This document shows positions 18,614-29,739 of a stretch of DNA of 64,000 bases, piece by piece. The position numbers and the translations under genes were made by a program. This DNA is from the human T2T-CHM13v2.0 reference genome, Homo sapiens. How positions within the stretch are numbered: position 1 is the stretch's first letter; every line of letters starts with the position of its first letter. The notes under the pieces are model-generated. The model did not search any database. It was not told where the DNA came from and worked only from the letters and a program-made list of their open reading frames with translations. The stretch lies in assembly GCF_009914755.1 (NCBI RefSeq), contig NC_060926.1; one strand, written 5' to 3'.

Positions 18614-18745
18614 CTTTTTGATCGTGGTACAATACTGAGGCAGCATACTCTGGTCCAGCCCTTCTATTTGTTTCAGCTTCTCACATACTGCATCCACATT
18701 CAGTGAATTCAGTAATACCACTGGGCCTGGGGCTGGGCCTGACCC
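18614..18745 (-). CDS. KIDINS220: KIDINS220 coding exon (~exon 27), start of SAM region
   Basis: tctag|GGGTCA...AAAAAG|gtgagg; 132 nt; GSGPAPGPVVLLNSLNVDAVCEKLKQIEGLDQSMLPQYCTTIKK. Confidence 0.95.
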
Positions 18746-19859
18746 CTAGAGAAGTCAAGGAAAAATACAGGTATGAATAAGCATTTAATGCCATCTATAA
18801 TGAGGTCATGTGACAGAGAAAAACTCATTAAGTTATACCATGAAGTAAAGTAAAAAAAAACAAATATGTTTAGCATGGTAAGGAAATACCATTAGGGAAC
18901 AGATTTAGTTACTGTTATAACCTAATGAGTAGCTTTTATTACAGCTGATACAGCCTGGTCAAAACCATTTTTTCTAAGAAAACAGAACATTTCATGAACA
19001 AAGCCTAGGTCAACTTCTCAAATGTTTACTGCCTAATCTCAAGAGAGAAGGGTGCCGTGCTTAATAAGAGGAAGAAGAGAGGTTAAAAAAAACACACACG
19101 CAAAAAGATGGAAAACTACTGATGCCAATATTATATGAATACAAAAAATAAACCTACAAAATAATTTTAAAGTACCTATACTAGACAATTAAGCAACTTT
19201 GAGTGTTTCTACAGACTACCTCAATGGTTACAAGAGCTGAAGTTTTCAGATCTTCATCATATTGTATCCAAGGGATCTAAAACTTCCTTTAGCATCTGTT
19301 AAATCATGATGTAAATACAAAACAACAGTATTAATTCTTAACACATGTGAAAGTAAATACCATCTATTAAAATTTGTTCTCATTTAAAAGGAAAGTCAAA
19401 ATAATTAAAAAGTCTAGTATTTATTTAGAAGAAAAACATTTTCGGAATGTGGATACTAACAAACCAGTTGTCCGTGGTCAATGATAAATGCATCTTCCCA
19501 GCACAGATGTGCTCATTGTGGTTTAGAGGGTGCATCAGCCTGGTCAAAATCAGGACTTTAAAGTCACAGAACAAATAACTAGTTAGTAGTAAACCTGAAC
19601 CAGAACTGTAACTTATCAGGTCTTATAACTTCCTATTTTCCTTTTTCCAACTTCTTTCACTTAACATAATGTTTTCAAGGTCCACCATGTCATAACATGC
19701 CAGTCCTTCATTTCTTCTTATTGCTGAGTCATATTTATCTTTTCTATCTTTCAAATGCTTTTATTCCTCAACCAGTCTCCTTGCTCTGGATACAGTTACA
19801 ATTGTTTACATTTTTTGTTGTTCAAAAAAATCACAAAAAAATAGTTTAATCAACAAAAT

Positions 19860-20700
19860 AACTAATGATCTTACTGGATTATGCCTCATAGATAAAATAA
19901 ATTTCCATGAGTCCATAGTAATATAACTAAATAATTGAAAAAAGTGAATTAATTAGGAAGCAGAGACAGCTTTTCTTTACAGAATTCCAATTAATAAATG
20001 TAGAACAGGAAAGCAGAAAATGACCATTAGGCAAACATAGTAACAGTGAGTGCACACATGATCCACAGACGGAAGCGAAAATTAATGGGCAAAAGTATAA
20101 GCAGAAACGGGATATTTGCAGAGTTTCAAAGTATCTCCTCCAAGATATTCACTAGTTATAGAAGGAACAATAAAACTTTACAGGCTGAAACCTGGCAGAT
20201 GCCACCTTAACCAAGTGACCAAGGTTAGCATTAGTGGTGGGAAGGCTTATGGACATCAAGAACCTTCAACTCTGATGCACTGGGAAGGGCATAGCATCAC
20301 TCCTGCAGTTTTCTAGCAATATACAGTCCCCTTGTAATCACGAGGAAACATCAGACAAACCCAAATTGAGGGACGTTCTACAAAATAACTAACCAGTATT
20401 CCTTAAAAGTGTTAATTAAGGTCATGAAAGATAAGGAAAGACCAAGAAACTGTCACAGATTAAAACAGACTAAGGAGAAATAAAATGCAACTGAATTGAA
20501 TCCTGGACCAGAAAAATGACATTTGTGGAAAAGCTGGTGAAATTCATATAAAGTCTGTAGTTTAGTTAATAGTATTATGCCAATTTTAATTTTTGCTTTT
20601 GATTATTATACTACAGTTATGAAAGATGTTTACATTGACAGAATAGCATTTTTTGCATCTTTTCTTTAGGGTTAAAATTATTTTAAAGTAAAAAATTTAT
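19860..20700 (+). mobile_element. Old L1 (L1MC/ME-like) 3' fragment
   Basis: CCTGGCAGATGCCACCTTAACCAAGTGACCAAGGTTAGCAT and ACATCAGACAAACCCAAATTGAGGGAC resemble L1M 3'UTR motifs. Confidence 0.65.
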
Positions 20701-21897
20701 TTCAAAAATCCCGAAATCTCTCTACTTCCGATTGTGCTAAAAACGACAAGTATAATAGACACGGATCAAATTAATCCTGTCAGCTTTGGAGGGAAAAATG
20801 TAAAATACTGAGGAGAATTTTATGTCTATGGAGAAGCTGAGAATTCAGCAACAGAGACATGTCAATAAAGACACCGCCCTTTTCCTTTAAAGCAAAAAGC
20901 TCTACCCAATGTTACTTTCACAATCTTTTTACAACTTCTACAATTTATCAGTTACTTTCAAGCATATTTTATCCTTCATTGGGGATTATGTAGAATATAT
21001 ATGTTACCTCTGAATTACTTTTAAAAGCTTTTTAAGAAAAGACAGACACATAGGGACATTAAGATCTTTGTAATTCCATCAAAACTATAGTCTGACCCTT
21101 ATTATAAGTTGGGCTTTATACAAGAGCTAAATTATCAATTAATGAAAATATGTTATAATATGCTTCTTTGAATAAAGAAGAAATGGTAATTACCTGCTAG
21201 ACCTTTTCTAAAATAATCATACATAAGAAAATTATTTTGAAACCACATGAATCTTATAACCAAAATAATAATTTGGGGGTGGAAATCTCATAAAAGGGAG
21301 GAGAAAGAGTGCAAAAATGATAAGGAAAGGGCAAAAAGCATATTCAATAATTCAGTAGGTAAATTCTTACTAGAAAATAAGCATATTACTTTGAGAATAC
21401 ACAGACTAGTTCAAATAATACTTTAATGTTTATCATGCATTCTTATTGAAATTATCTAAGTCAAGAAGAGACCATTTTAGCGTATTGATTTTAACATCAG
21501 AATTTGTTAAAATTTTTTTATGAATCAGAAAGCTGAATGCAGAAGATATTAGTGTGTTTAAACTGTTAAAAATAAACTACAAAATTTACACAGATCAGAA
21601 TTTCTCCAGGTAAAAGTAAAGCTATCAAAATACTGAAATTACCCTGAGGTAACTATATCACTGTGTATTGTAAGTAGATTAGAACTACACTCTGACACAT
21701 TATCATCTTTGGTAAATTTATTAAATAAGCACAAAACTGATTAGCCAGAAATGAGTGCCATGCAATGGCTGGAAGCAACTAATAAATCGAACGCACCTTA
21801 GTGAGCACAGATTTATAGACAGCCCAGCATGAAGTTGCCAATGATTGCTTCTAGTAGTCTAATAAGAAAAGTAAGATTTCATTGAGAGTTTCTGTAC

Positions 21898-21930
21898 CTG
21901 TCTCTGTTTGTTAAACCCAGAGTCACACAG
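21898..21930 (-). CDS. KIDINS220: Candidate 33-nt in-frame alternative microexon LCDSGFNKQRQ
   Basis: ttttattccttccttaaag|CTGTGTGACTCTGGGTTTAACAAACAGAGACAG|gtacag; phase 0-0, no stop; flanking TGCATG motifs. Confidence 0.72.
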
Positions 21931-23031
21931 CTTTAAGGAAGGAATAAAACACAGTGAAGGACAAGAGCATAAAGTAACACATCCGATGCACAACTATAAA
22001 TGTCTAACATACACAGGCAGAGCTTCATCATTCCTATTTCCTCCTCACTCTGAACGGACCACGGACAACAGCACACAGCAAGGAGCACACATGCATGCAC
22101 ACACACCCCCAACCACAGTAGCTGCATTCCATTCACATGTGCTTGGTCATCTTACAATTATACTCCTAAAAAAAATTATATTTTTTGTATTGAAAGAATA
22201 AATCATGAGCCATACATTTAATAAGAAAATGAGGTACATCAGATTGGCTATGAAAAGTCAATATTCGTAATATATGCAAGTTTAACATTAATTTAAAAAC
22301 ATTGAATAAGAAGGCTTAGTTACTTAGACTATCACATGATCATAAAATATCTAGCCACACTGTAGGTCATGTTCAGAAATACACTTTCAAATTTGAGTTT
22401 TGCTTCTTTGGGTATGTGGCACATAATAGATGCACTAAATACCATTTCATAAGAATGGCCCCAAGAGGCTTCTAGCTCGAGAAACAGACAAACCTTGCAA
22501 ACTGTGATGAACATAACCATTTCAGTGAGGTGGATTTTTAAAAACTCTAATCCAAAGCAAATAATCACTGCTGGCAGTTATTCTTCTGTACTTAGATTGA
22601 TAATAAATATTCTTAAAATGCTTAAAATGATCTAGAGATGACTGGCAATTTGTACCAAAGTTAATTTACAACACTGTTTTAGTATATTAAATGGCAGGGT
22701 TTTTGCTAGCCTGACGTTTGATGTCTTTCTTTTAACATATTCAATATCTGGGGCACTTCGTGGAAATCCTGTTTTCTAGTTTACACTATCGACCTTATTA
22801 TAAATAGGTTTTTAAAAAGCTGTCTGTAGAGATTTGCAAAAATACCAAAATAGGAGTGCTAAGGAAATTACAGTTTACTACAAGACATCCAAAACACAAA
22901 AGAAAGCTATTATTCACCTGATTGGAAAATATAACTTACTCTTCAAGCTACTTAAGAAATACTAGGTCAAAGCTGACAAATTAGGCATAACACTACATTT
23001 TAAGAGCAATCTTTTAAAAAACACAAGTACT

Positions 23032-23355
23032 GGCAGGGTGTGGTGGCTCACACCTGTAATCCCAACACTTTGGGAGGCCACAGTGGTGGATGACTTGAGG
23101 TCAGGAGTTCAAGACCAGCCTGGCCAACATGGCTAAACACTGTTTCTACTGAAAGTACAAAAATTAGCTGGGCTAATTTTTCACTGTGCGGTGGTGCACG
23201 CCTGGGTCCCAGCTACTCGGAAGGCTGAGGCAGGAGAATCACTTGAATCCAGGAGGTGGAGGTTGCAGTAAGCCAAGATTGTGCCATTGTACTCCAGCCT
23301 GGGTGACAGAGCGAGACTCTGTCTCAAAAAAACCAAAATGAAACAAAACAAAATA
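23032..23355 (+). mobile_element. Alu (AluS-like)
   Basis: Alu dimer; TSD AAAAACACAAGTACT on both sides. Confidence 0.9.
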
Positions 23356-23767
23356 AAAACACAAGTACTAAACTACTGCAATGAACATAATTTTGTTGTT
23401 TTTAAACTTTTAACTGTACTCTAGGATTTCATAACATTACTGTAATATTATTTCTGTGAAAATATCCCAATCAATTTAGTTGAAAATTGTTTAGGAAAAA
23501 AGTTTTCTTGAGTTGAAGTCTGGCACAAAGACTTTCAAGCGGGAAGTGAAAACAATTTTTCACTATACTTTAATAAGAGGCAAAAATGAGTAAATACTTT
23601 TCCAAATTCAAACAGAATAGTACAAATCCACTTCTAAGACACTTTAAAAAGTGTGAATGGTGTTAAAGCTGGTTGAGGCTACTGTGCAAAGTCGCTGAGA
23701 GCTGACAGGGAGGACCTGTCCTGAGCCTGAAGCCTAAACACAACCTAAAACGCCTTCGACTCCCTAC

Positions 23768-23803
23768 CTATGGCACCTTTAACTTTCTTGTCCACGTCTT
23801 CTC
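23768..23803 (-). other. KIDINS220: Microexon-like element (EKTWTRKLKVP*), candidate poison or degenerate cassette exon
   Basis: tctctcattgttcag|GAG AAG ACG TGG ACA AGA AAG TTA AAG GTG CCA TAG|gtaggg; an alternative weak donor AAG|gtgcca would give 27 nt. Confidence 0.5.
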
Positions 23804-23874
23804 CTGAACAATGAGAGACAGCTTAAGTTCTAAACCAGTGGTGAAAATAAAAATTGTCCACAGGTGAGCCCCAC

Positions 23875-24130
23875 TTTTTTTTTTGAGACAAGGTCTGCTC
23901 TGTCACCACGCTGGGGTGCAGTGCTGTGATCTTGGCACTCAACTGATCCTCTCACCTCAGCCTCTCAAGTAGGGGGACTTCAGGTGTGCGCTACCATGCC
24001 CTGCCTGGCTAATTTTTTTTTTTTTTTTTAAAGAAATGGTCTTGCTATGTTGCCTAGGCTGGTCTTGAACTTGTGGGCTCAAGTCATCCTCCTGCCTCAG
24101 CCTTCCTAAGTGCAGGCTTACTGCATGGGC
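23875..24130 (-). mobile_element. Alu (AluJ-like, internally deleted)
   Basis: Reverse-complement Alu with T tail at 23875. Confidence 0.85.
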
Positions 24131-25755
24131 CATCCCATGGGGACTTGTTTTCACTTTTTACTTGGTCACTCCACTGACTGGACCCTGTTTAATGAAAACC
24201 AAGACTTTCAGTTTTAATATCTTCATTCAATAGTTTTCATCAACATCTAAAGGTAAAGGTAACAGCACACTGGAGCTGTGTTAACACTGCCTTTGCAGTT
24301 CTGAAATTCTTTATGATTAAACTTTGTGCTAATTATTGTCATGCTTTTTCAACAAGTTATAAAAGTGATCTAAATAAAGCTGTCCAAAGGTAACGAGTAA
24401 ACCCTGTAGCTGAGGAGGTCAAGAAAGAATGACTTCATAAAACCGATAATTCCCTCGGTGGCCTTCAGGTCCACACTCTGTGAAGCAAGATTTTCATCAG
24501 TTTTCTTCACTGCTGTGTCCCACTAGAATAGCGCCTCTTACACTCAATAAATATTCGTTGAACTAATCGCTGATCACACAAAGCATCGGTGGTACTCAAT
24601 GTAAAATAATTCAGGGAAAAATGAAAGGATGAAGAAATGCTTTATTGCTCCTTTGAAAATGTGCTTTTCAATGAAACACAGTTACCACCAGGAGCAGCAT
24701 ACCTTAAATTAAGCCAAACTACAGAGCTTCGAGAGCAACTCTTTGAGATGACAGAACAACATGCCACTGAGGAGACCTGGCCAGACACAGGGCCTCAATA
24801 CTAGGTCCTTTGCTTCACTGGGGTCACAGAATCATGTGAATGCTGCCATTTCCTAGTGGGAACTGGACTCAAAGAAGGTAAAGGCACCAGTGAAAACATC
24901 CCTGGAAAGCTTTCAAAATTTTAAAGTATCTAAAGTATTCAAATAACCTAGAAATTCCTCTAAATTCTAAGAAAACAAACCGATTAACAACTTTAGGGCT
25001 AAGAAGCATCAACAGATAAAAAGGCTGCATGAATCTAAACTGATTGGAGTATTTGTACACCACTCCCATGACTGAGACAAAGATGATTTAACCAAAAACA
25101 GTTTGAGTTCTGCGTCTTTAAGGCTCCACGGATTCTGGCCTTTGGGCAGTAGTAGCAGTAGTAATAATAATAATGAAGTACTTAAAGTATGCTAAGGCTG
25201 ACTAATCCTTGAATCAGACCTGAGGCAGGTCTGCTTTTCCCAGTGAGAAAGCTGAGAATCAGAGGGGTAAAGTAATCTGTCCAAGGCAAAGAGCTCATCA
25301 CCAGGGTCTGTTTAACTCAAAAGACCAAATACCTGACTAAGTCGTGTTCAGGACGAACGGGGCAGAGCCACCAGCATGGTGGTGAGCGCCATGGTCTCCT
25401 GCATTCTAGTTCCAAATCTGGCACCCCTTTCCTGTGTCCCTCAGGTAAGTCTCACACATTCTATCTGTGCCATGTGGAGACTAGCACTCCTGGGGGACCC
25501 TCAAGAGGAAAGGCATGTGTAATGTGGGTTCCAGGATTCTGCTTTTATTGGTTTTACAAACTGGAGTTTTGATTAAGAGTTCATTTCTAAAAGCTTCTAT
25601 GCTTTGGAACTTTGAAAAACACTGTTCCTTTCTAGCCCTAATATTCTGGGAAGCATGTCTTGCATATAGTACTAATTTTTTAACCTGGTTTCACAAGATT
25701 TGGCATATATTTTTTCTCTATTATACAATTATTTTTAAAAAGCTAGCATGGAGGC

Positions 25756-25984
25756 TTATAGATATATCCAACTGTTTCACAGAAGTGAGGATTTGTTTTA
25801 TTAATATATTAATATATTTTATATTAACATCTTTTATATTACTATATCATTAATATATTATATATTTTATAATATAAATATGTTATATATTAATATAATT
25901 ATTTTATAATATATATTATTTATATTATATATTATTAATTTATATAAAACCTCACTTCTGTGAAACACTTGGATATATCTATAA
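25756..25984. repeat. 35-bp inverted repeat (34/35 match) enclosing a 159-bp AT-rich spacer
   Basis: Arms 25756-25790 TTATAGATATATCCAACTGTTTCACAGAAGTGAGG and 25950-25984 CCTCACTTCTGTGAAACACTTGGATATATCTATAA. Confidence 0.95.
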
Positions 25985-26110
25985 TTTATCTGACAAGTCC
26001 CTCCCTGGACATCACAAGCTATAAGCACTACAGTGTTCCTTAATGTGAGAAAACTCAATGATTTTTATAAGGATCTAATTTATAAAGGTGATTCAGATGT
26101 TCCTCATGGC

Positions 26111-26183
<73 letters not shown>
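26111..26183 (+). repeat. Poly(A)-(TA)n compound microsatellite
   Basis: A18 followed by about 27 TA units. Confidence 0.95.
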
Positions 26184-26185
<2 letters not shown>

Positions 26186-27254
26186 GATCATCTCTATTTT
26201 GAAAAGACCATAGCTGGTTAACCCCTTATGGCCTGGCTTTTTTAACACATTACCTTGTGACATGACAATTTGTCCAAAAACGTTTGTGTAGTTCTTGACT
26301 CTTCTGCAGGCTTTGTATAGAGACGGCTGACTGAGCAGAGATGGGACCAATGGGAAATCCCGTTGTCCAGAAACACAGAGTTTTCTGCTACAGAGCTCGA
26401 TGGGCTACACATACTTTTCTGCTAGGTACTCTCTGTTGGTCCAGCTACAAAGTTCTGGCAATGTTCCCATGTTCTGATTCTTTACCTTCCACCACAGCTT
26501 TCAATTTGGCATTGAACTAAGTGACTACTTAGTTTTTCTAGGCTTCGACAAAACAAATTTTACATTCTATTGTCGTTGTTAATTTCTTAAAAGCAAAGGA
26601 AGCTTAGTAAGCATCTATTATTTGTTATGCTAATCATAAAATGATCTTTTCATAGTAAAATAAAAGCAAATGATATGGTTATTCTACTAGACAAAGTCAC
26701 TAATATATGCAGAGCACCTTTGTTGAGCTTCTAAACACATCTCAAGAATCACACGATTTCCCCTTCTCCAAAAACTCATTTCAAAATTTGCCTAATGCTC
26801 CTTTACTGGTCCCTAAAAGAAACTACAGACACCTTTTAATGACATGTATTTGTCTACATTCTTGAGCATGGGAATAGCTACTATGTCAGCATGTCTGTGT
26901 CATTAAGGCCATTAACTTCTTCACAGTATCTGATTTTCTTCAAAACTTTGCTCAGGAATTTTAGCTCAGAGAATTGAATTGCATGCAATAATGTGTATGT
27001 TAAAGGCTCTCTGACTAAACTAAAGGTCATTCTTGCATATAGTGATGATGACCCATGGATTAAAGATCCTGTAAGCACTAAAGAGAATTATTGTGGTTTA
27101 CTGTGGATAACTGAAGTCACTGAAACACTTCAGCTGAAATGTTAAAATGACTTTAAAATAATCATCAACCTCTCAACGAAAGCACCACAACGGTTCTCTT
27201 TTTCTCTCCTATTAACATTAACTCAAAGGAAATTAAAGTTAAAAAGCTACTGCT

Positions 27255-27545
27255 GGCCAGGCACGGTGGCTCACACCTGTAATCCCAGCACTTTGGGAGG
27301 CCAAGACGGGCAGATCACAAGGTCAGGAGTTCGAGACCAGCCTGGCCAACATGGTGAAACCCCATCGCTACTACAAAAACACAAAAATTAGCCAGGCATG
27401 GTGGTGGGAGCCTGTAATCCCAGCTACTCAGGAGGCTGAGGCAGGAGAATCGCTTGAAACCAGAAGGCTGAGGTTGCAGTGAGCTGAGATGGCATCACTG
27501 CACTCCAGCCTGAGCAAAAGAGCGAAACTCCGTCAAAAGAAAAAC
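27255..27545 (+). mobile_element. Alu (AluS-like)
   Basis: Full Alu dimer. Confidence 0.9.
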
Positions 27546-27792
27546 AACCTATTGCCTGCTAAAATGCAAGTTTTAAGTTAAAAATTACAGATAAACTTAG
27601 TAATATTTCACCATGTTAATTCTAACTGCTATGCCACATTTCAACACAGCTATAGGCTAAACTGACCATATTACATGGGTGTAACATAGTCTGTAAATAA
27701 AACAACCAAAGTTAAAATACAAACTGGGTTCTTTTTTTTTTTTTTGAGACGGAGTCTTGCTCTGTCGCCCAGGCTCTAAATGAAGATTTTAA

Positions 27793-28150
<358 letters not shown>

Positions 28151-28883
28151 TAGTAATTTATGAGGTGATTCCCTCTACAAGGTTTTTCTGTTTATTTTTT
28201 GTTTTTTTCTTTTTGTTTTTTTTTTTTTAAAGAAACCTACCTTAAGGTGTTGGCAAAAAATAAATAAATAAATAAATAATTTCTTTTACATGCTGAACGA
28301 TCTTCTGTTTATCTGGAAAATTTATTTTAACAAATATATAGACAAAGAAAAGTATTATAACACTGCACTAAAACTCAGGCTAAGACTTAACTAAATGTAG
28401 ACACCTAGATTGAGTTATTAAAGATGCATTTTTAGTCTACACCATCTAGCTTATGTGTCTTTTTGTAGTCTCAAGGGTGATACTGGATACTTTTCTAAAA
28501 TATTCCACATGTGTAATAGCAACCACAGGCTTAACAAAAACAGTCAAAGGCAAAGCTAGAGCTCACACTGAGGAGCAAATACTACCAACGGAACACCCCT
28601 GACAGCTGATAGAAAAAGCCCTTCCTTATTGAAGAATAAAAAAAAACCCCATCCCATGTATTGAAAAAGGGGAAAAGCAGGAGGAAATAATGGGTGAAGT
28701 TAAACATCCGCTTTTTAATTAATTCAGGAACCATAATTATTAGCATTCAGCTACTCTACACTAGCTGCTCATCACACCACAAACGCAGAGTTAGTGAGCT
28801 GCTATCATCACAATTAAGACAGTCATTACTGAGGCAGAAGCAATGAGATGCCAGCGATCCACACCACAGGACTACTCCATTAC

Positions 28884-28940
28884 CCTCGAGGAGTCTGTGG
28901 GTGAAGAAAGCCCCTCAGCAGCATCCTCCTTGATAACTTC
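28884..28940 (-). CDS. KIDINS220: KIDINS220 cassette exon (~exon 26)
   Basis: gttag|GAAGTT...TCGAGG|gtaatg; 57 nt, phase 0-0; EVIKEDAAEGLSSPTDSSR. Confidence 0.92.
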
Positions 28941-29625: not shown

Positions 29626-29739
29626 TAGGCCATTGTTCTGATCTCTGGGCAAACTCGTTTTTACTGATGGACGTGAGATGAGATGTTGGGAGCCGCCAGG
29701 GTAATACCTTGGCGTGTAAAGGTATGGGGCAAAGAATGG
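29626..29739 (-). CDS. KIDINS220: KIDINS220 cassette exon (~exon 25)
   Basis: catag|CCATTC...GGCCTA|gtaagt; 114 nt, phase 0-0; PFFAPYLYTPRYYPGGSQHLISRPSVKTSLPRDQNNGL; too short for the ORF track. Confidence 0.92.

What the first reader, a model, noticed from the sequence alone, without database searches (positions are those of the whole stretch)
23768..23820. Degenerate or poison microexon EKTWTRKLKVP* in the alternatively spliced cluster
Seen: a good acceptor (TCTCTCATTGTTCAG) opens phase 0 into EKTWTRKLK. It then meets either a weak donor AAG|GTGCCA (27 nt, in frame) or continues VP-TAG|GTAGGG (36 nt, stop as last codon). Recalled and unverified: rodent Kidins220 has a small cassette exon resembling EKSWTRKQLME at this position, before the CDSGFNKQRQ exon. 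Inference: a coding microexon in other mammals has become a silent remnant or an NMD-coupled poison exon in this lineage, truncating the protein before the SAM domain.
Basis: partly seen in the sequence, partly recalled or inferred. Interest (0 to 1): 0.72.

Follow-up and report, generated by a model that had tools for sequence, protein, structure and literature searches.

The report
Dead human copy of Kidins220 exon 27
This 36-base stretch in a KIDINS220 intron is the human counterpart of a small coding exon used in rodent brain, but in human it ends in a stop codon, so it is most likely skipped or gives only a short-lived faulty message.

Summary
Window 23803..23768 (minus strand) is a 36-nt segment with acceptor ...tctctcattgttcag|, donor TAG|gtaggg, an internal weak donor AAG|gtgcca, and phase-0 translation EKTWTRKLKVP*.

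It is not a chance pseudo-exon.
- It lies in order between the human orthologues of mouse exons 26 and 28.
- It is the best six-frame match in the 10.1-kb intron to the hedgehog microexon EQTWMRKLKMPW: score 44, next best 26, reached by 0 of 200 shuffles.
- It resembles mouse exon 27, EKSWTRKQLME, as printed in Schmieg 2015.

Hedgehog and degu have Trp (TGG only) where human has TAG. Methionine (ATG) stands where human GTG creates the internal donor.

Both splice sites score within the range of annotated exons. Inclusion would place a stop 468 nt before the last junction, which predicts NMD.

No human or other primate isoform among the 170 library proteins classified carries it, and neither does RefSeq. 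Schmieg 2015 called exons 27 and 28 "undetectable in the human genome"; both are detectable here, and exon 28 is intact.

Best reading: a disabled, mostly skipped cassette exon, flanked by inverted Alus. Whether it acts as a regulated poison exon is untested. Interest is modest.

The parts
23768..23803 (-). 36-nt human orthologue of rodent Kidins220 exon 27 (EKTWTRKLKVP*)
   Evidence: Searches give the sequence and translation; best six-frame hit of the hedgehog microexon peptide in the intron, score 44 against a next-best 26, reached by 0 of 200 shuffles.
23768..23770 (-). In-frame TAG, the last codon of the exon; it aligns to Trp (TGG) in hedgehog and degu
   Evidence: alignment: 2 of 2 species that have a 12th codon carry W there.
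23804..23823 (-). 3' splice site with pyrimidine tract agctgtctctcattgttcag|
   Evidence: score 4.1, rank 15 of 683 AG sites. Annotated exons in the window range from -4.1 to 9.3.
23759..23767 (-). Intronic part of the main 5' splice site TAG|gtagggagt
   Evidence: score 3.6, rank 10 of 608 GT sites. Annotated exons range from -0.3 to 7.5.
23775..23776 (-). GT of the weak internal donor AAG|gtgcca, which would give a 27-nt open exon EKTWTRKLK. The GT lies in a Val codon (GTG) where the other species have Met (ATG).
   Evidence: score -0.0, rank 61 of 608. M at this column in 4 of 4 library species and in the mouse peptide.
21898..21930 (-). Intact human orthologue of mouse exon 28 (LCDSGFNKQRQ), the next cassette exon downstream
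   Evidence: One search gives the sequence ttccttaaag|CTG...CAG|gtacag; acceptor 3.7, donor 1.0; the orangutan partial isoform P0138 contains PCDSGFNKQRQ.
28884..28940 (-). Upstream neighbour, orthologue of mouse exon 26 (EVIKEDAAEGLSSPTDSSR)
   Evidence: hub annotation; the mouse peptide.
18614..18745 (-). Downstream constitutive exon (GSGPAPGP...), start of the SAM-like domain region
23875..24140 (-). Alu-like repeat, sense on the gene strand, with its poly(A) end about 72 nt upstream of the acceptor
   Evidence: 13 other copies in the window at 66-85% identity..
23004..23367 (+). Alu in the opposite orientation, about 400 nt downstream of the donor; it forms an inverted pair with the upstream Alu
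   Evidence: arms up to 79 nt at 70-88% complementarity; 169 predicted inter-Alu pairs.

Best explanation
The segment is the human orthologue of the small cassette exon that mouse and rat number as Kidins220 exon 27. Mouse brain includes that exon in the full-length m1 isoform. In the human lineage its last codon reads TAG where the ancestral codon was most likely TGG (Trp), so it can no longer serve as a coding cassette. It keeps a usable acceptor and a good donor. Any inclusion would therefore put a stop codon 468 nt upstream of the last exon junction, and the transcript should be removed by nonsense-mediated decay. Most likely the exon is skipped in nearly all human transcripts, as a dead cassette exon or pseudo-exon, and rare inclusion is unproductive noise. 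A primate-specific pair of inverted Alus that brackets it may help to keep it out. Shown here: the sequence, its position, its homology, the stop, and the splice-site ranks. Inferred: the direction of the TGG-to-TAG change, NMD of any inclusion product, skipping in human tissue, and any role of the Alus.
For: Order and phase: mouse exons 26, 27 and 28 correspond to human 28884-28940, 23768-23803 and 21898-21930, all phase 0 and multiples of three.

Homology: the hedgehog peptide's best six-frame hit in the 10,138-nt intron is exactly this segment, with score 44 against a next-best 26; the null mean is 21.3, sd 3.0, max 35, and 0 of 200 shuffles reach it. The Phodopus peptide's best hit is the same site, score 32, reached by 4 of 200 shuffles.

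Mouse: the peptide ...SSREKSWTRKQLMEL... is printed in Schmieg 2015, where m1 was sequenced from cDNA and detected with that antibody in adult brain.

The stop: 2 of 2 species with a 12th codon have W, which has the single codon TGG, one transition away from TAG.

Splice sites fall within the range of the window's annotated exons.

The stop lies 468 nt before the last junction and upstream of SAM_KIDINS220.

Non-use in primates: 0 of the primate isoforms returned (Homo, Pan, Gorilla, Pongo, Nomascus, Propithecus, Lemur, Nycticebus) carries it, although the Pongo and Lemur isoforms carry exon 28. The RefSeq table supplied with the task lists no exon between 18745 and 28884. Schmieg 2015 sequenced only three human brain isoforms and found no exon 27 or 28.

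Alus: inverted arms lie on either side. The predicted fold has 169 inter-Alu pairs, with MFE -417.4 against a mean of -319.2 kcal/mol when the downstream Alu is shuffled (10 replicates). Per its abstract, Lev-Maor 2008 reports that oppositely oriented intronic Alus pair and shift a nearby exon towards skipping.
Against: No RNA evidence for human tissue could be examined, so 'mostly skipped' rests on annotation and one RT-PCR study. NMD would in any case hide included transcripts from both.

The splice sites are well kept, and the human peptide is the closest of all to hedgehog (8 of 11 identical). That fit also suits continued use, for example as a poison exon.

Two of the four library peptides do not support the homology on their own. 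For Mastomys the site is only second (24, behind a chance hit of 26; the top score is reached by 17 of 200 shuffles). For Octodon there is no significant match (95 of 200).

The microexon is seen in only 4 of 170 library proteins, and three of those are computational gene models.

The splice-site matrix was typed from recalled frequencies; it is not MaxEntScan.

The Alu effect is a fold prediction on an isolated 1161-nt piece. In Lev-Maor 2008 both Alus lay in the same intron, not on either side of the exon.

I could not check whether the TAG is fixed in humans or particular to this assembly.
Confidence: 0.6

Rival explanations
1. Regulated poison exon. In human neurons the exon is still recognised by the machinery that includes exon 27 in adult mouse brain. 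Its inclusion now sends KIDINS220 mRNA to nonsense-mediated decay, which tunes protein dosage.
For: Both splice sites are kept and rank in the top 2-3% of sites in the intron. It is the only short AG...GT pair of that quality in 10 kb. The inferred G-to-A change that makes the stop sits at donor position -2, where A is the consensus base in the matrix, so the donor was not weakened. The stop lies 468 nt before the last junction. The mouse orthologue is included in adult brain.
Against: There is no exon here in the RefSeq table, which covers 16 transcripts. KIDINS220 has 0 occurrences in the supplements held as text of two poison-exon catalogues. It was not seen among human brain RT-PCR products. 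There is no UGC within 100 nt upstream and no GCAUG within 300 nt downstream (the significance of these motifs is recalled). Inverted Alus flank it.
Confidence: 0.25
2. Working coding microexon through the internal donor. Human uses AAG|gtgcca and inserts nine residues (EKTWTRKLK) in frame, avoiding the TAG.
For: The 27-nt form is open and in frame. The GT of this donor is derived: it is GTG in human where 4 of 4 library species and mouse have Met (ATG). A compensating change could look like this.
Against: The donor scores -0.0 and ranks 61st of 608, against 3.6 and rank 10 for the donor 9 nt downstream. No primate isoform in the library carries such an insert. It is not in RefSeq or in Schmieg's h1-h3.
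Confidence: 0.05
3. Source of a truncated protein. The exon is included and the message escapes decay, for example by ending at a poly(A) site in the following intron. That would give a protein of about 1206 residues lacking the SAM-like domain and the C-terminal motifs.
For: An ATTAAA lies 194 nt downstream of the donor. Truncated isoforms ending just before the SAM domain are annotated in other mammals, for example seal P0129, which reads through the exon-28 donor.
Against: A single weak hexamer in an AT-rich intron is expected by chance. No such human transcript is in the annotation table. Nothing was tested at the RNA or protein level.
Confidence: 0.05
4. Chance pseudo-exon with no evolutionary relation to any real exon.
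For: Introns contain many AG...GT pairs. The Mastomys and Octodon peptides alone do not single out the site.
Against: The hedgehog peptide matches here at 7.6 sd above the shuffle mean, reached by 0 of 200 shuffles, and the match is bounded exactly by the splice sites, in the right phase, strand and order between exons 26 and 28. Seven of the first eight residues are identical to the mouse peptide.
Confidence: 0.03

Closest known systems
Mouse/rat Kidins220 exon 27 (Schmieg et al. 2015, PLoS One, PMC4470590)
   Same: Same gene and same slot between exon 26 (EVIKED...) and exon 28 (LCDSGFNKQRQ). Same phase and similar sequence (mouse EKSWTRKQLME, human EKTWTRKLKVP*). It is part of the exon 24-29 alternatively spliced cluster just before the SAM-like domain.
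   Different: The rodent exon is 33 nt and open, and is included in the adult-brain m1 isoform. The human copy is 36 nt, as in hedgehog and degu, ends in TAG, and is not in any annotated human transcript. [quoted passage not shown]
Poison (NMD-coupled) cassette exons, such as SCN1A 20N
   Same: A short cassette exon in an intron of a neurodevelopmental disease gene, whose inclusion introduces a premature stop well upstream of the last junction.
   Different: Known poison exons show measured inclusion, a response to NMD inhibition and often deep conservation. None of these could be tested here, and the gene is absent from the supplements held as text of the two catalogues I searched. What I know of SCN1A 20N comes from the abstract in the listing only.
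Neuronal microexon programme (SRRM4/nSR100-dependent; recalled, no paper read here)
   Same: A short symmetrical exon in a neuronal scaffold protein, included in adult brain in mouse, lying in a disordered linker next to a domain.
   Different: At 36 nt it is above the strict limit of 27 nt. The human copy has no UGC within 100 nt upstream of the acceptor. No KIDINS220 microexon paper was found.
Alu-driven change of splicing mode (Lev-Maor et al. 2008, PMC2533698; abstract read)
   Same: Two oppositely oriented intronic Alus close to an exon are predicted to pair. Alus are enriched next to exons whose splicing changed after the primate-rodent split.
   Different: In that study both Alus lay in the upstream intron and the effect was shown by experiment. 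Here they bracket the exon and the pairing is only predicted.

Membership tests
Orthologue of rodent Kidins220 exon 27 | Lies between the orthologues of exon 26 and exon 28 on the gene strand | tested here: met
   The order on the minus strand is 28884-28940 (EVIKED...), then 23768-23803, then 21898-21930 (LCDSGFNKQRQ). The order is the same in P0078, P0102 and P0123.
Orthologue of rodent Kidins220 exon 27 | Sequence similarity beyond chance | tested here: met
   the hedgehog peptide's top hit is here with score 44, reached by 0 of 200 shuffles; the Phodopus top hit is here, reached by 4 of 200. The Mastomys (2nd rank) and Octodon peptides are not significant on their own.
Orthologue of rodent Kidins220 exon 27 | Same phase, length a multiple of three, AG/GT boundaries | tested here: met
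   36 nt, phase 0, cag| and |gtaggg.
Orthologue of rodent Kidins220 exon 27 | Open reading frame through the exon (needed for a working coding exon) | tested here: not met
   The last codon is TAG. The segment is therefore an orthologous remnant, not a working coding copy.
Poison exon (alternative splicing coupled to NMD) | Inclusion introduces an in-frame premature stop | tested here: met
Poison exon (alternative splicing coupled to NMD) | The stop lies more than about 50-55 nt upstream of the last exon-exon junction | tested here: met
   468 nt, or 501 nt with exon 28 included. The rule itself is established knowledge.
Poison exon (alternative splicing coupled to NMD) | The exon is actually included in transcripts, and these rise when NMD is blocked | not testable with these tools
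   No RNA-seq tool was available. Indirect negatives: the RefSeq table, Schmieg 2015, and the two catalogues.
Poison exon (alternative splicing coupled to NMD) | Conservation of the exon together with its stop in related species | not testable with these tools
   No primate or other mammalian genome DNA is reachable.
SRRM4-type neuronal microexon | UGC motif close upstream of the 3' splice site (criterion recalled) | tested here: not met
   The nearest UGC is at -117, inside the Alu.
SRRM4-type neuronal microexon | Length of at most 27 nt (strict) or at most 51 nt (loose) | tested here: inconclusive
   36 nt with the main donor and 27 nt with the weak internal donor.

The most novel reading that the evidence does not exclude
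In the primate or human lineage a brain-specific coding microexon of KIDINS220 was converted by a single G-to-A change into a regulated poison exon. The neuronal signals that add 11-12 residues before the SAM-like domain in rodents would then lower KIDINS220 dosage in human neurons. That would be a species difference in a neurotrophin-signalling scaffold whose dosage and truncations cause human disease.
Probability: 0.15. Interest if true: 0.6.

Novelty: new member of a known kind. Interest (0 to 1): 0.35.

Why it matters
KIDINS220 is a disease gene. The abstracts listed link it to SINO syndrome and to ventriculomegaly. Mouse models are read across to human. The only study of its central splice cluster says that exons 27 and 28 do not exist in the human genome. 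The sequence shows instead that both are present. Exon 28 is intact. Exon 27 is disabled by a stop at its last codon but remains splice-competent. This explains why human has fewer isoforms than mouse (three against six). It also warns that the mouse full-length m1 isoform has no human equivalent. Finally, it marks a site where intronic variants, or changes in splicing factors, could cause unproductive splicing. If the exon is included and regulated, it would be a target for dosage modulation. If not, it is a tidy example of lineage-specific exon death.

Tried and rejected
- The sequence alignment of mouse, rat and human isoforms in Schmieg's S3 Fig could not be read, because the PDF holds pictures only. 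S1 Table gave only accession numbers. What h1-h3 contain is therefore known to me only from the text.
- A first version of the peptide-scan script timed out and was rewritten.
- A protein search with a 175-residue fragment, meant to find Schmieg's partial GenBank proteins (m1-m6, h1-h3, r1-r7), did not return them. It gave an orangutan partial isoform and many short unrelated-looking fragments. I read 4 of the 35 hits as sequences and screened all of them by pattern.
- Literature searches for a KIDINS220 microexon, poison exon, or exon 27/28 found nothing beyond Schmieg 2015. A 2016 review only cites that paper.
- An Rfam scan of 21500-24500 on both strands found 0 families, so there is no sign of a structured RNA gene here.
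- The regulatory-motif scan for RBFOX, UGC, YCAY, PTB and MBNL sites found nothing notable near the exon.
- Dating the TAG gain, the ATG-to-GTG change and the Alu insertions was not possible, because no eukaryotic genome collection is reachable with these tools.
- MaxEntScan was not available. The splice scores come from a recalled frequency matrix and should be used only as ranks.

Full report
**What is there.** On the minus strand, which is the KIDINS220 strand, the window reads ...ttaagctgtctctcattgttcag|GAGAAGACGTGGACAAGAAAGTTAAAGGTGCCATAG|gtagggagt. The 36 nt at 23803..23768 translate as EKTWTRKLKVP*. The neighbouring coding exons are 29626-29739 (114 nt, PFFAPY...NNGL), 28884-28940 (57 nt, EVIKEDAAEGLSSPTDSSR) and 18614-18745 (132 nt, GSGPAPGP...). 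The weak internal donor AAG|gtgcca, which would give a 27-nt exon, is also present.

**Is it more than chance?** I scored every AG and GT on the gene strand of intron 18746-28883 with a position-weight matrix typed from recalled human splice-site frequencies. MaxEntScan was not available, so I use the scores only as ranks.
- The acceptor scores 4.1 and ranks 15th of 683 AG sites.
- The TAG|gtaggg donor scores 3.6 and ranks 10th of 608 GT sites.
- The internal donor scores -0.0 and ranks 61st of 608.
- For comparison, the 13 annotated acceptors in the window span -4.1 to 9.3 and the 12 annotated donors span -0.3 to 7.5.
- Only one AG...GT pair of 9-60 nt in the intron has both sites at least this good, and that pair is the segment itself.

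**Homology.** A protein search with the last coding exon returned 120 mammalian KIDINS220 isoforms. Two further searches added 50 more proteins. I cut out the stretch between the conserved ...PFYNR and NINGR... anchors. The cassette order in other mammals is PFFAPY... (38 aa), EVIKED... (19 aa), an 11-12-residue microexon, (P/L/S)CDSGFNKQRQ (11 aa), then GSGP....

The microexon is present in 4 of the 170 library proteins classified:

| Species (protein) | Microexon peptide |
|---|---|
| Erinaceus X2 (P0078) | EQTWMRKLKMPW |
| Octodon X2 (P0123) | AKIQTSELWMPW |
| Phodopus (P0102) | DKSWMRKLQMR |
| Mastomys X3 (P0089) | ARSWTRKQLMQ |

All four of these proteins also carry the CDSGFNKQRQ exon.

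For mouse, the Methods of Schmieg et al. 2015 print the peptide used to raise the m1 antibody, EVIKEDAAEGLPSPTASSREKSWTRKQLMELC. The m1 isoform was sequenced from cDNA and detected mainly in adult mouse brain.

I then scanned all six frames of the human intron with each library peptide, using ungapped BLOSUM62 scoring.
- Hedgehog: the best hit is exactly 23768-23803(-), score 44. The next best is 26. The shuffle mean is 21.3, sd 3.0, max 35, and 0 of 200 shuffles reach 44.
- Phodopus: the best hit is the same site, score 32, reached by 4 of 200 shuffles.
- Mastomys: the site is only second, at 24, behind a chance hit of 26. The top score is reached by 17 of 200 shuffles.
- Octodon: not significant, 95 of 200.

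Taken with the exact agreement of strand, phase, boundaries and order, I regard orthology as established. It rests mainly on the hedgehog, Phodopus and mouse sequences.

**What changed in the human lineage.** In the ungapped 12-codon alignment, human shares 8 of 11 residues with hedgehog. That is the highest of all pairs.
- Codon 12 is Trp in both species that have a 12th codon, hedgehog and degu. Trp has the single codon TGG, so human TAG is one G-to-A transition away. By parsimony, with one laurasiatherian and one rodent carrying W, the stop arose on the lineage to human after the split from rodents. I cannot date it more closely.
- The changed base is donor position -2. A is the consensus base there in the matrix, so the change did not weaken the donor.
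- Codon 10 is Met (ATG only) in 4 of 4 library species and in the mouse peptide. In human it is GTG, and this creates the GT of the internal donor. Both of these inferences assume no hidden indels.
- Muroid rodents have 11 codons and the others have 12.

**Consequence of inclusion.** With the main donor, the TAG would lie 468 nt upstream of the last exon-exon junction, or 501 nt if exon 28 is also included. By the established 50-55-nt rule such a transcript is an NMD substrate. If it were translated, the product would end about 18 residues before the Pfam SAM_KIDINS220 domain. In hedgehog that domain starts at residue 1226 and the microexon is at about 1197-1208.

**Is it used in human?** I have no RNA data. 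The indirect evidence points to no use, or very little.
- The RefSeq table supplied with the task lists no exon between 18745 and 28884 in 16 transcripts.
- None of the primate isoforms returned carries the microexon (Homo, Pan troglodytes, Pan paniscus, Gorilla, Pongo, Nomascus, Propithecus, Lemur, Nycticebus). Yet the orangutan partial isoform P0138 and the Lemur catta isoform P0125 do carry exon 28.
- Schmieg et al. sequenced only three isoforms from human brain, against six in mouse. [quoted passage not shown]
- KIDINS220 does not occur in the supplements held as text of two poison-exon catalogues.
- No paper in the searchable library mentions a KIDINS220 microexon or poison exon.

The caveat is that NMD would deplete exactly the transcripts in question from RT-PCR products and from annotation.

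**The published statement needs correcting.** Both exons are plainly detectable in this assembly. The exon 28 orthologue at 21930..21898 reads ttccttaaag|CTGTGTGACTCTGGGTTTAACAAACAGAGACAG|gtacag, which translates as LCDSGFNKQRQ. It is open, with an acceptor score of 3.7 and a donor score of 1.0. Exon 27 is present but carries the stop.

**A possible reason for skipping.** The 260 nt from about 23875 to 24140 are an old Alu-like repeat. It has 13 other copies in the window at 66-85% identity. It is sense on the gene strand, and its poly(A) end lies about 72 nt upstream of the acceptor. The masked repeat 23004-23367, about 400 nt downstream of the donor, is an Alu in the opposite orientation. 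The two share inverted arms of up to 79 nt at 70-88% complementarity.

An MFE fold of the 1161-nt pre-mRNA piece predicts 169 base pairs between the two Alus. The energy is -417.4 kcal/mol, against a mean of -319.2 (range -333.9 to -303.5) when the downstream Alu is shuffled in 10 replicates. Per its abstract, Lev-Maor et al. 2008 showed by experiment that oppositely oriented intronic Alus pair and shift a nearby exon from constitutive to alternative. They also found that Alus are enriched beside exons whose splicing mode changed after the primate-rodent split. In that study both Alus lay upstream of the exon, whereas here they bracket it. This step is inference only.

The motif scan found no UGC within 100 nt upstream of the acceptor and no GCAUG within 300 nt downstream. 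From recalled knowledge these are typical of SRRM4- and RBFOX-activated neuronal exons. Whether the rodent exon has them is unknown to me.

**Verdict.**
- Most likely (about 0.6): a dead cassette exon. It is the orthologue of rodent exon 27, disabled by a stop at its last codon and skipped in nearly all human transcripts, with any residual inclusion unproductive.
- A genuinely regulated poison exon remains possible (about 0.25), because the splice sites are so well kept.
- Use of the 27-nt open form, and a truncated protein that escapes NMD, are each unlikely (about 0.05). For the latter, an ATTAAA lies 194 nt downstream.
- A chance pseudo-exon is nearly excluded.

The kind of event, lineage-specific loss of a cassette exon or unproductive splicing, is well known. 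The specific human remnant appears not to be described, and it contradicts one sentence in the literature. Interest is modest.

Noticed in passing
window 21898-21930 (-): An intact human orthologue of mouse exon 28 (LCDSGFNKQRQ) with AG/GT boundaries. It is absent from the RefSeq exon table given with the task, and Schmieg 2015 declared it undetectable in the human genome. An orangutan partial isoform (P0138) and a Lemur catta isoform (P0125) include the equivalent exon. Human has Leu where most other mammals have Pro at the first codon; mouse appears to have Leu too, judging from the peptide.
   Followed up: partly
window 21722-21930 (-): Reading through the exon-28 donor gives LCDSGFNKQRQ-VQKLSMKSYFSY-stop, with an AATAAA 176 nt past the donor. 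A harbour-seal isoform (P0129, 1224 aa, a cluster of 64 members) ends with the matching tail ...QRQVQKFSVKSYSLFLLDY. This suggests a conserved alternative terminal exon that truncates the protein just before the SAM-like domain.
   Followed up: partly
window 23004-23367 and 23875-24140: An inverted pair of Alu-like repeats brackets the microexon. The predicted fold joins them by 169 base pairs.
   Followed up: partly
window 23801-23806 (-): The acceptor reads CAG|GAG, a tandem NAGNAG-type arrangement. A second AG three bases further on could remove the first codon; G at -3 makes it a poor site. The first residue of the microexon also varies between species (E, D, A).
   Followed up: no
library proteins P0066 (Castor), P0128 (Jaculus), P0095 (Lemmus), P0140 (Gekko), P0131 (Acomys): Other species show odd variants in the same cluster. 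Beaver has VMESSRSVQRQ in place of the exon-28 peptide. Jerboa has two extra residues (VM) before PCDSGF. Lemming reads VQKLL past the exon-28 donor. Gecko has a long unrelated insert. Spiny mouse has a read-through tail after exon 26. These may be model errors or real splice-site shifts.
   Followed up: no
library proteins classified: Exons 25 and 26, which are part of the selected human transcript, are themselves cassette exons across mammals. 47 of the 170 library proteins join ...PFYNR directly to the GSGP... exon.
   Followed up: no
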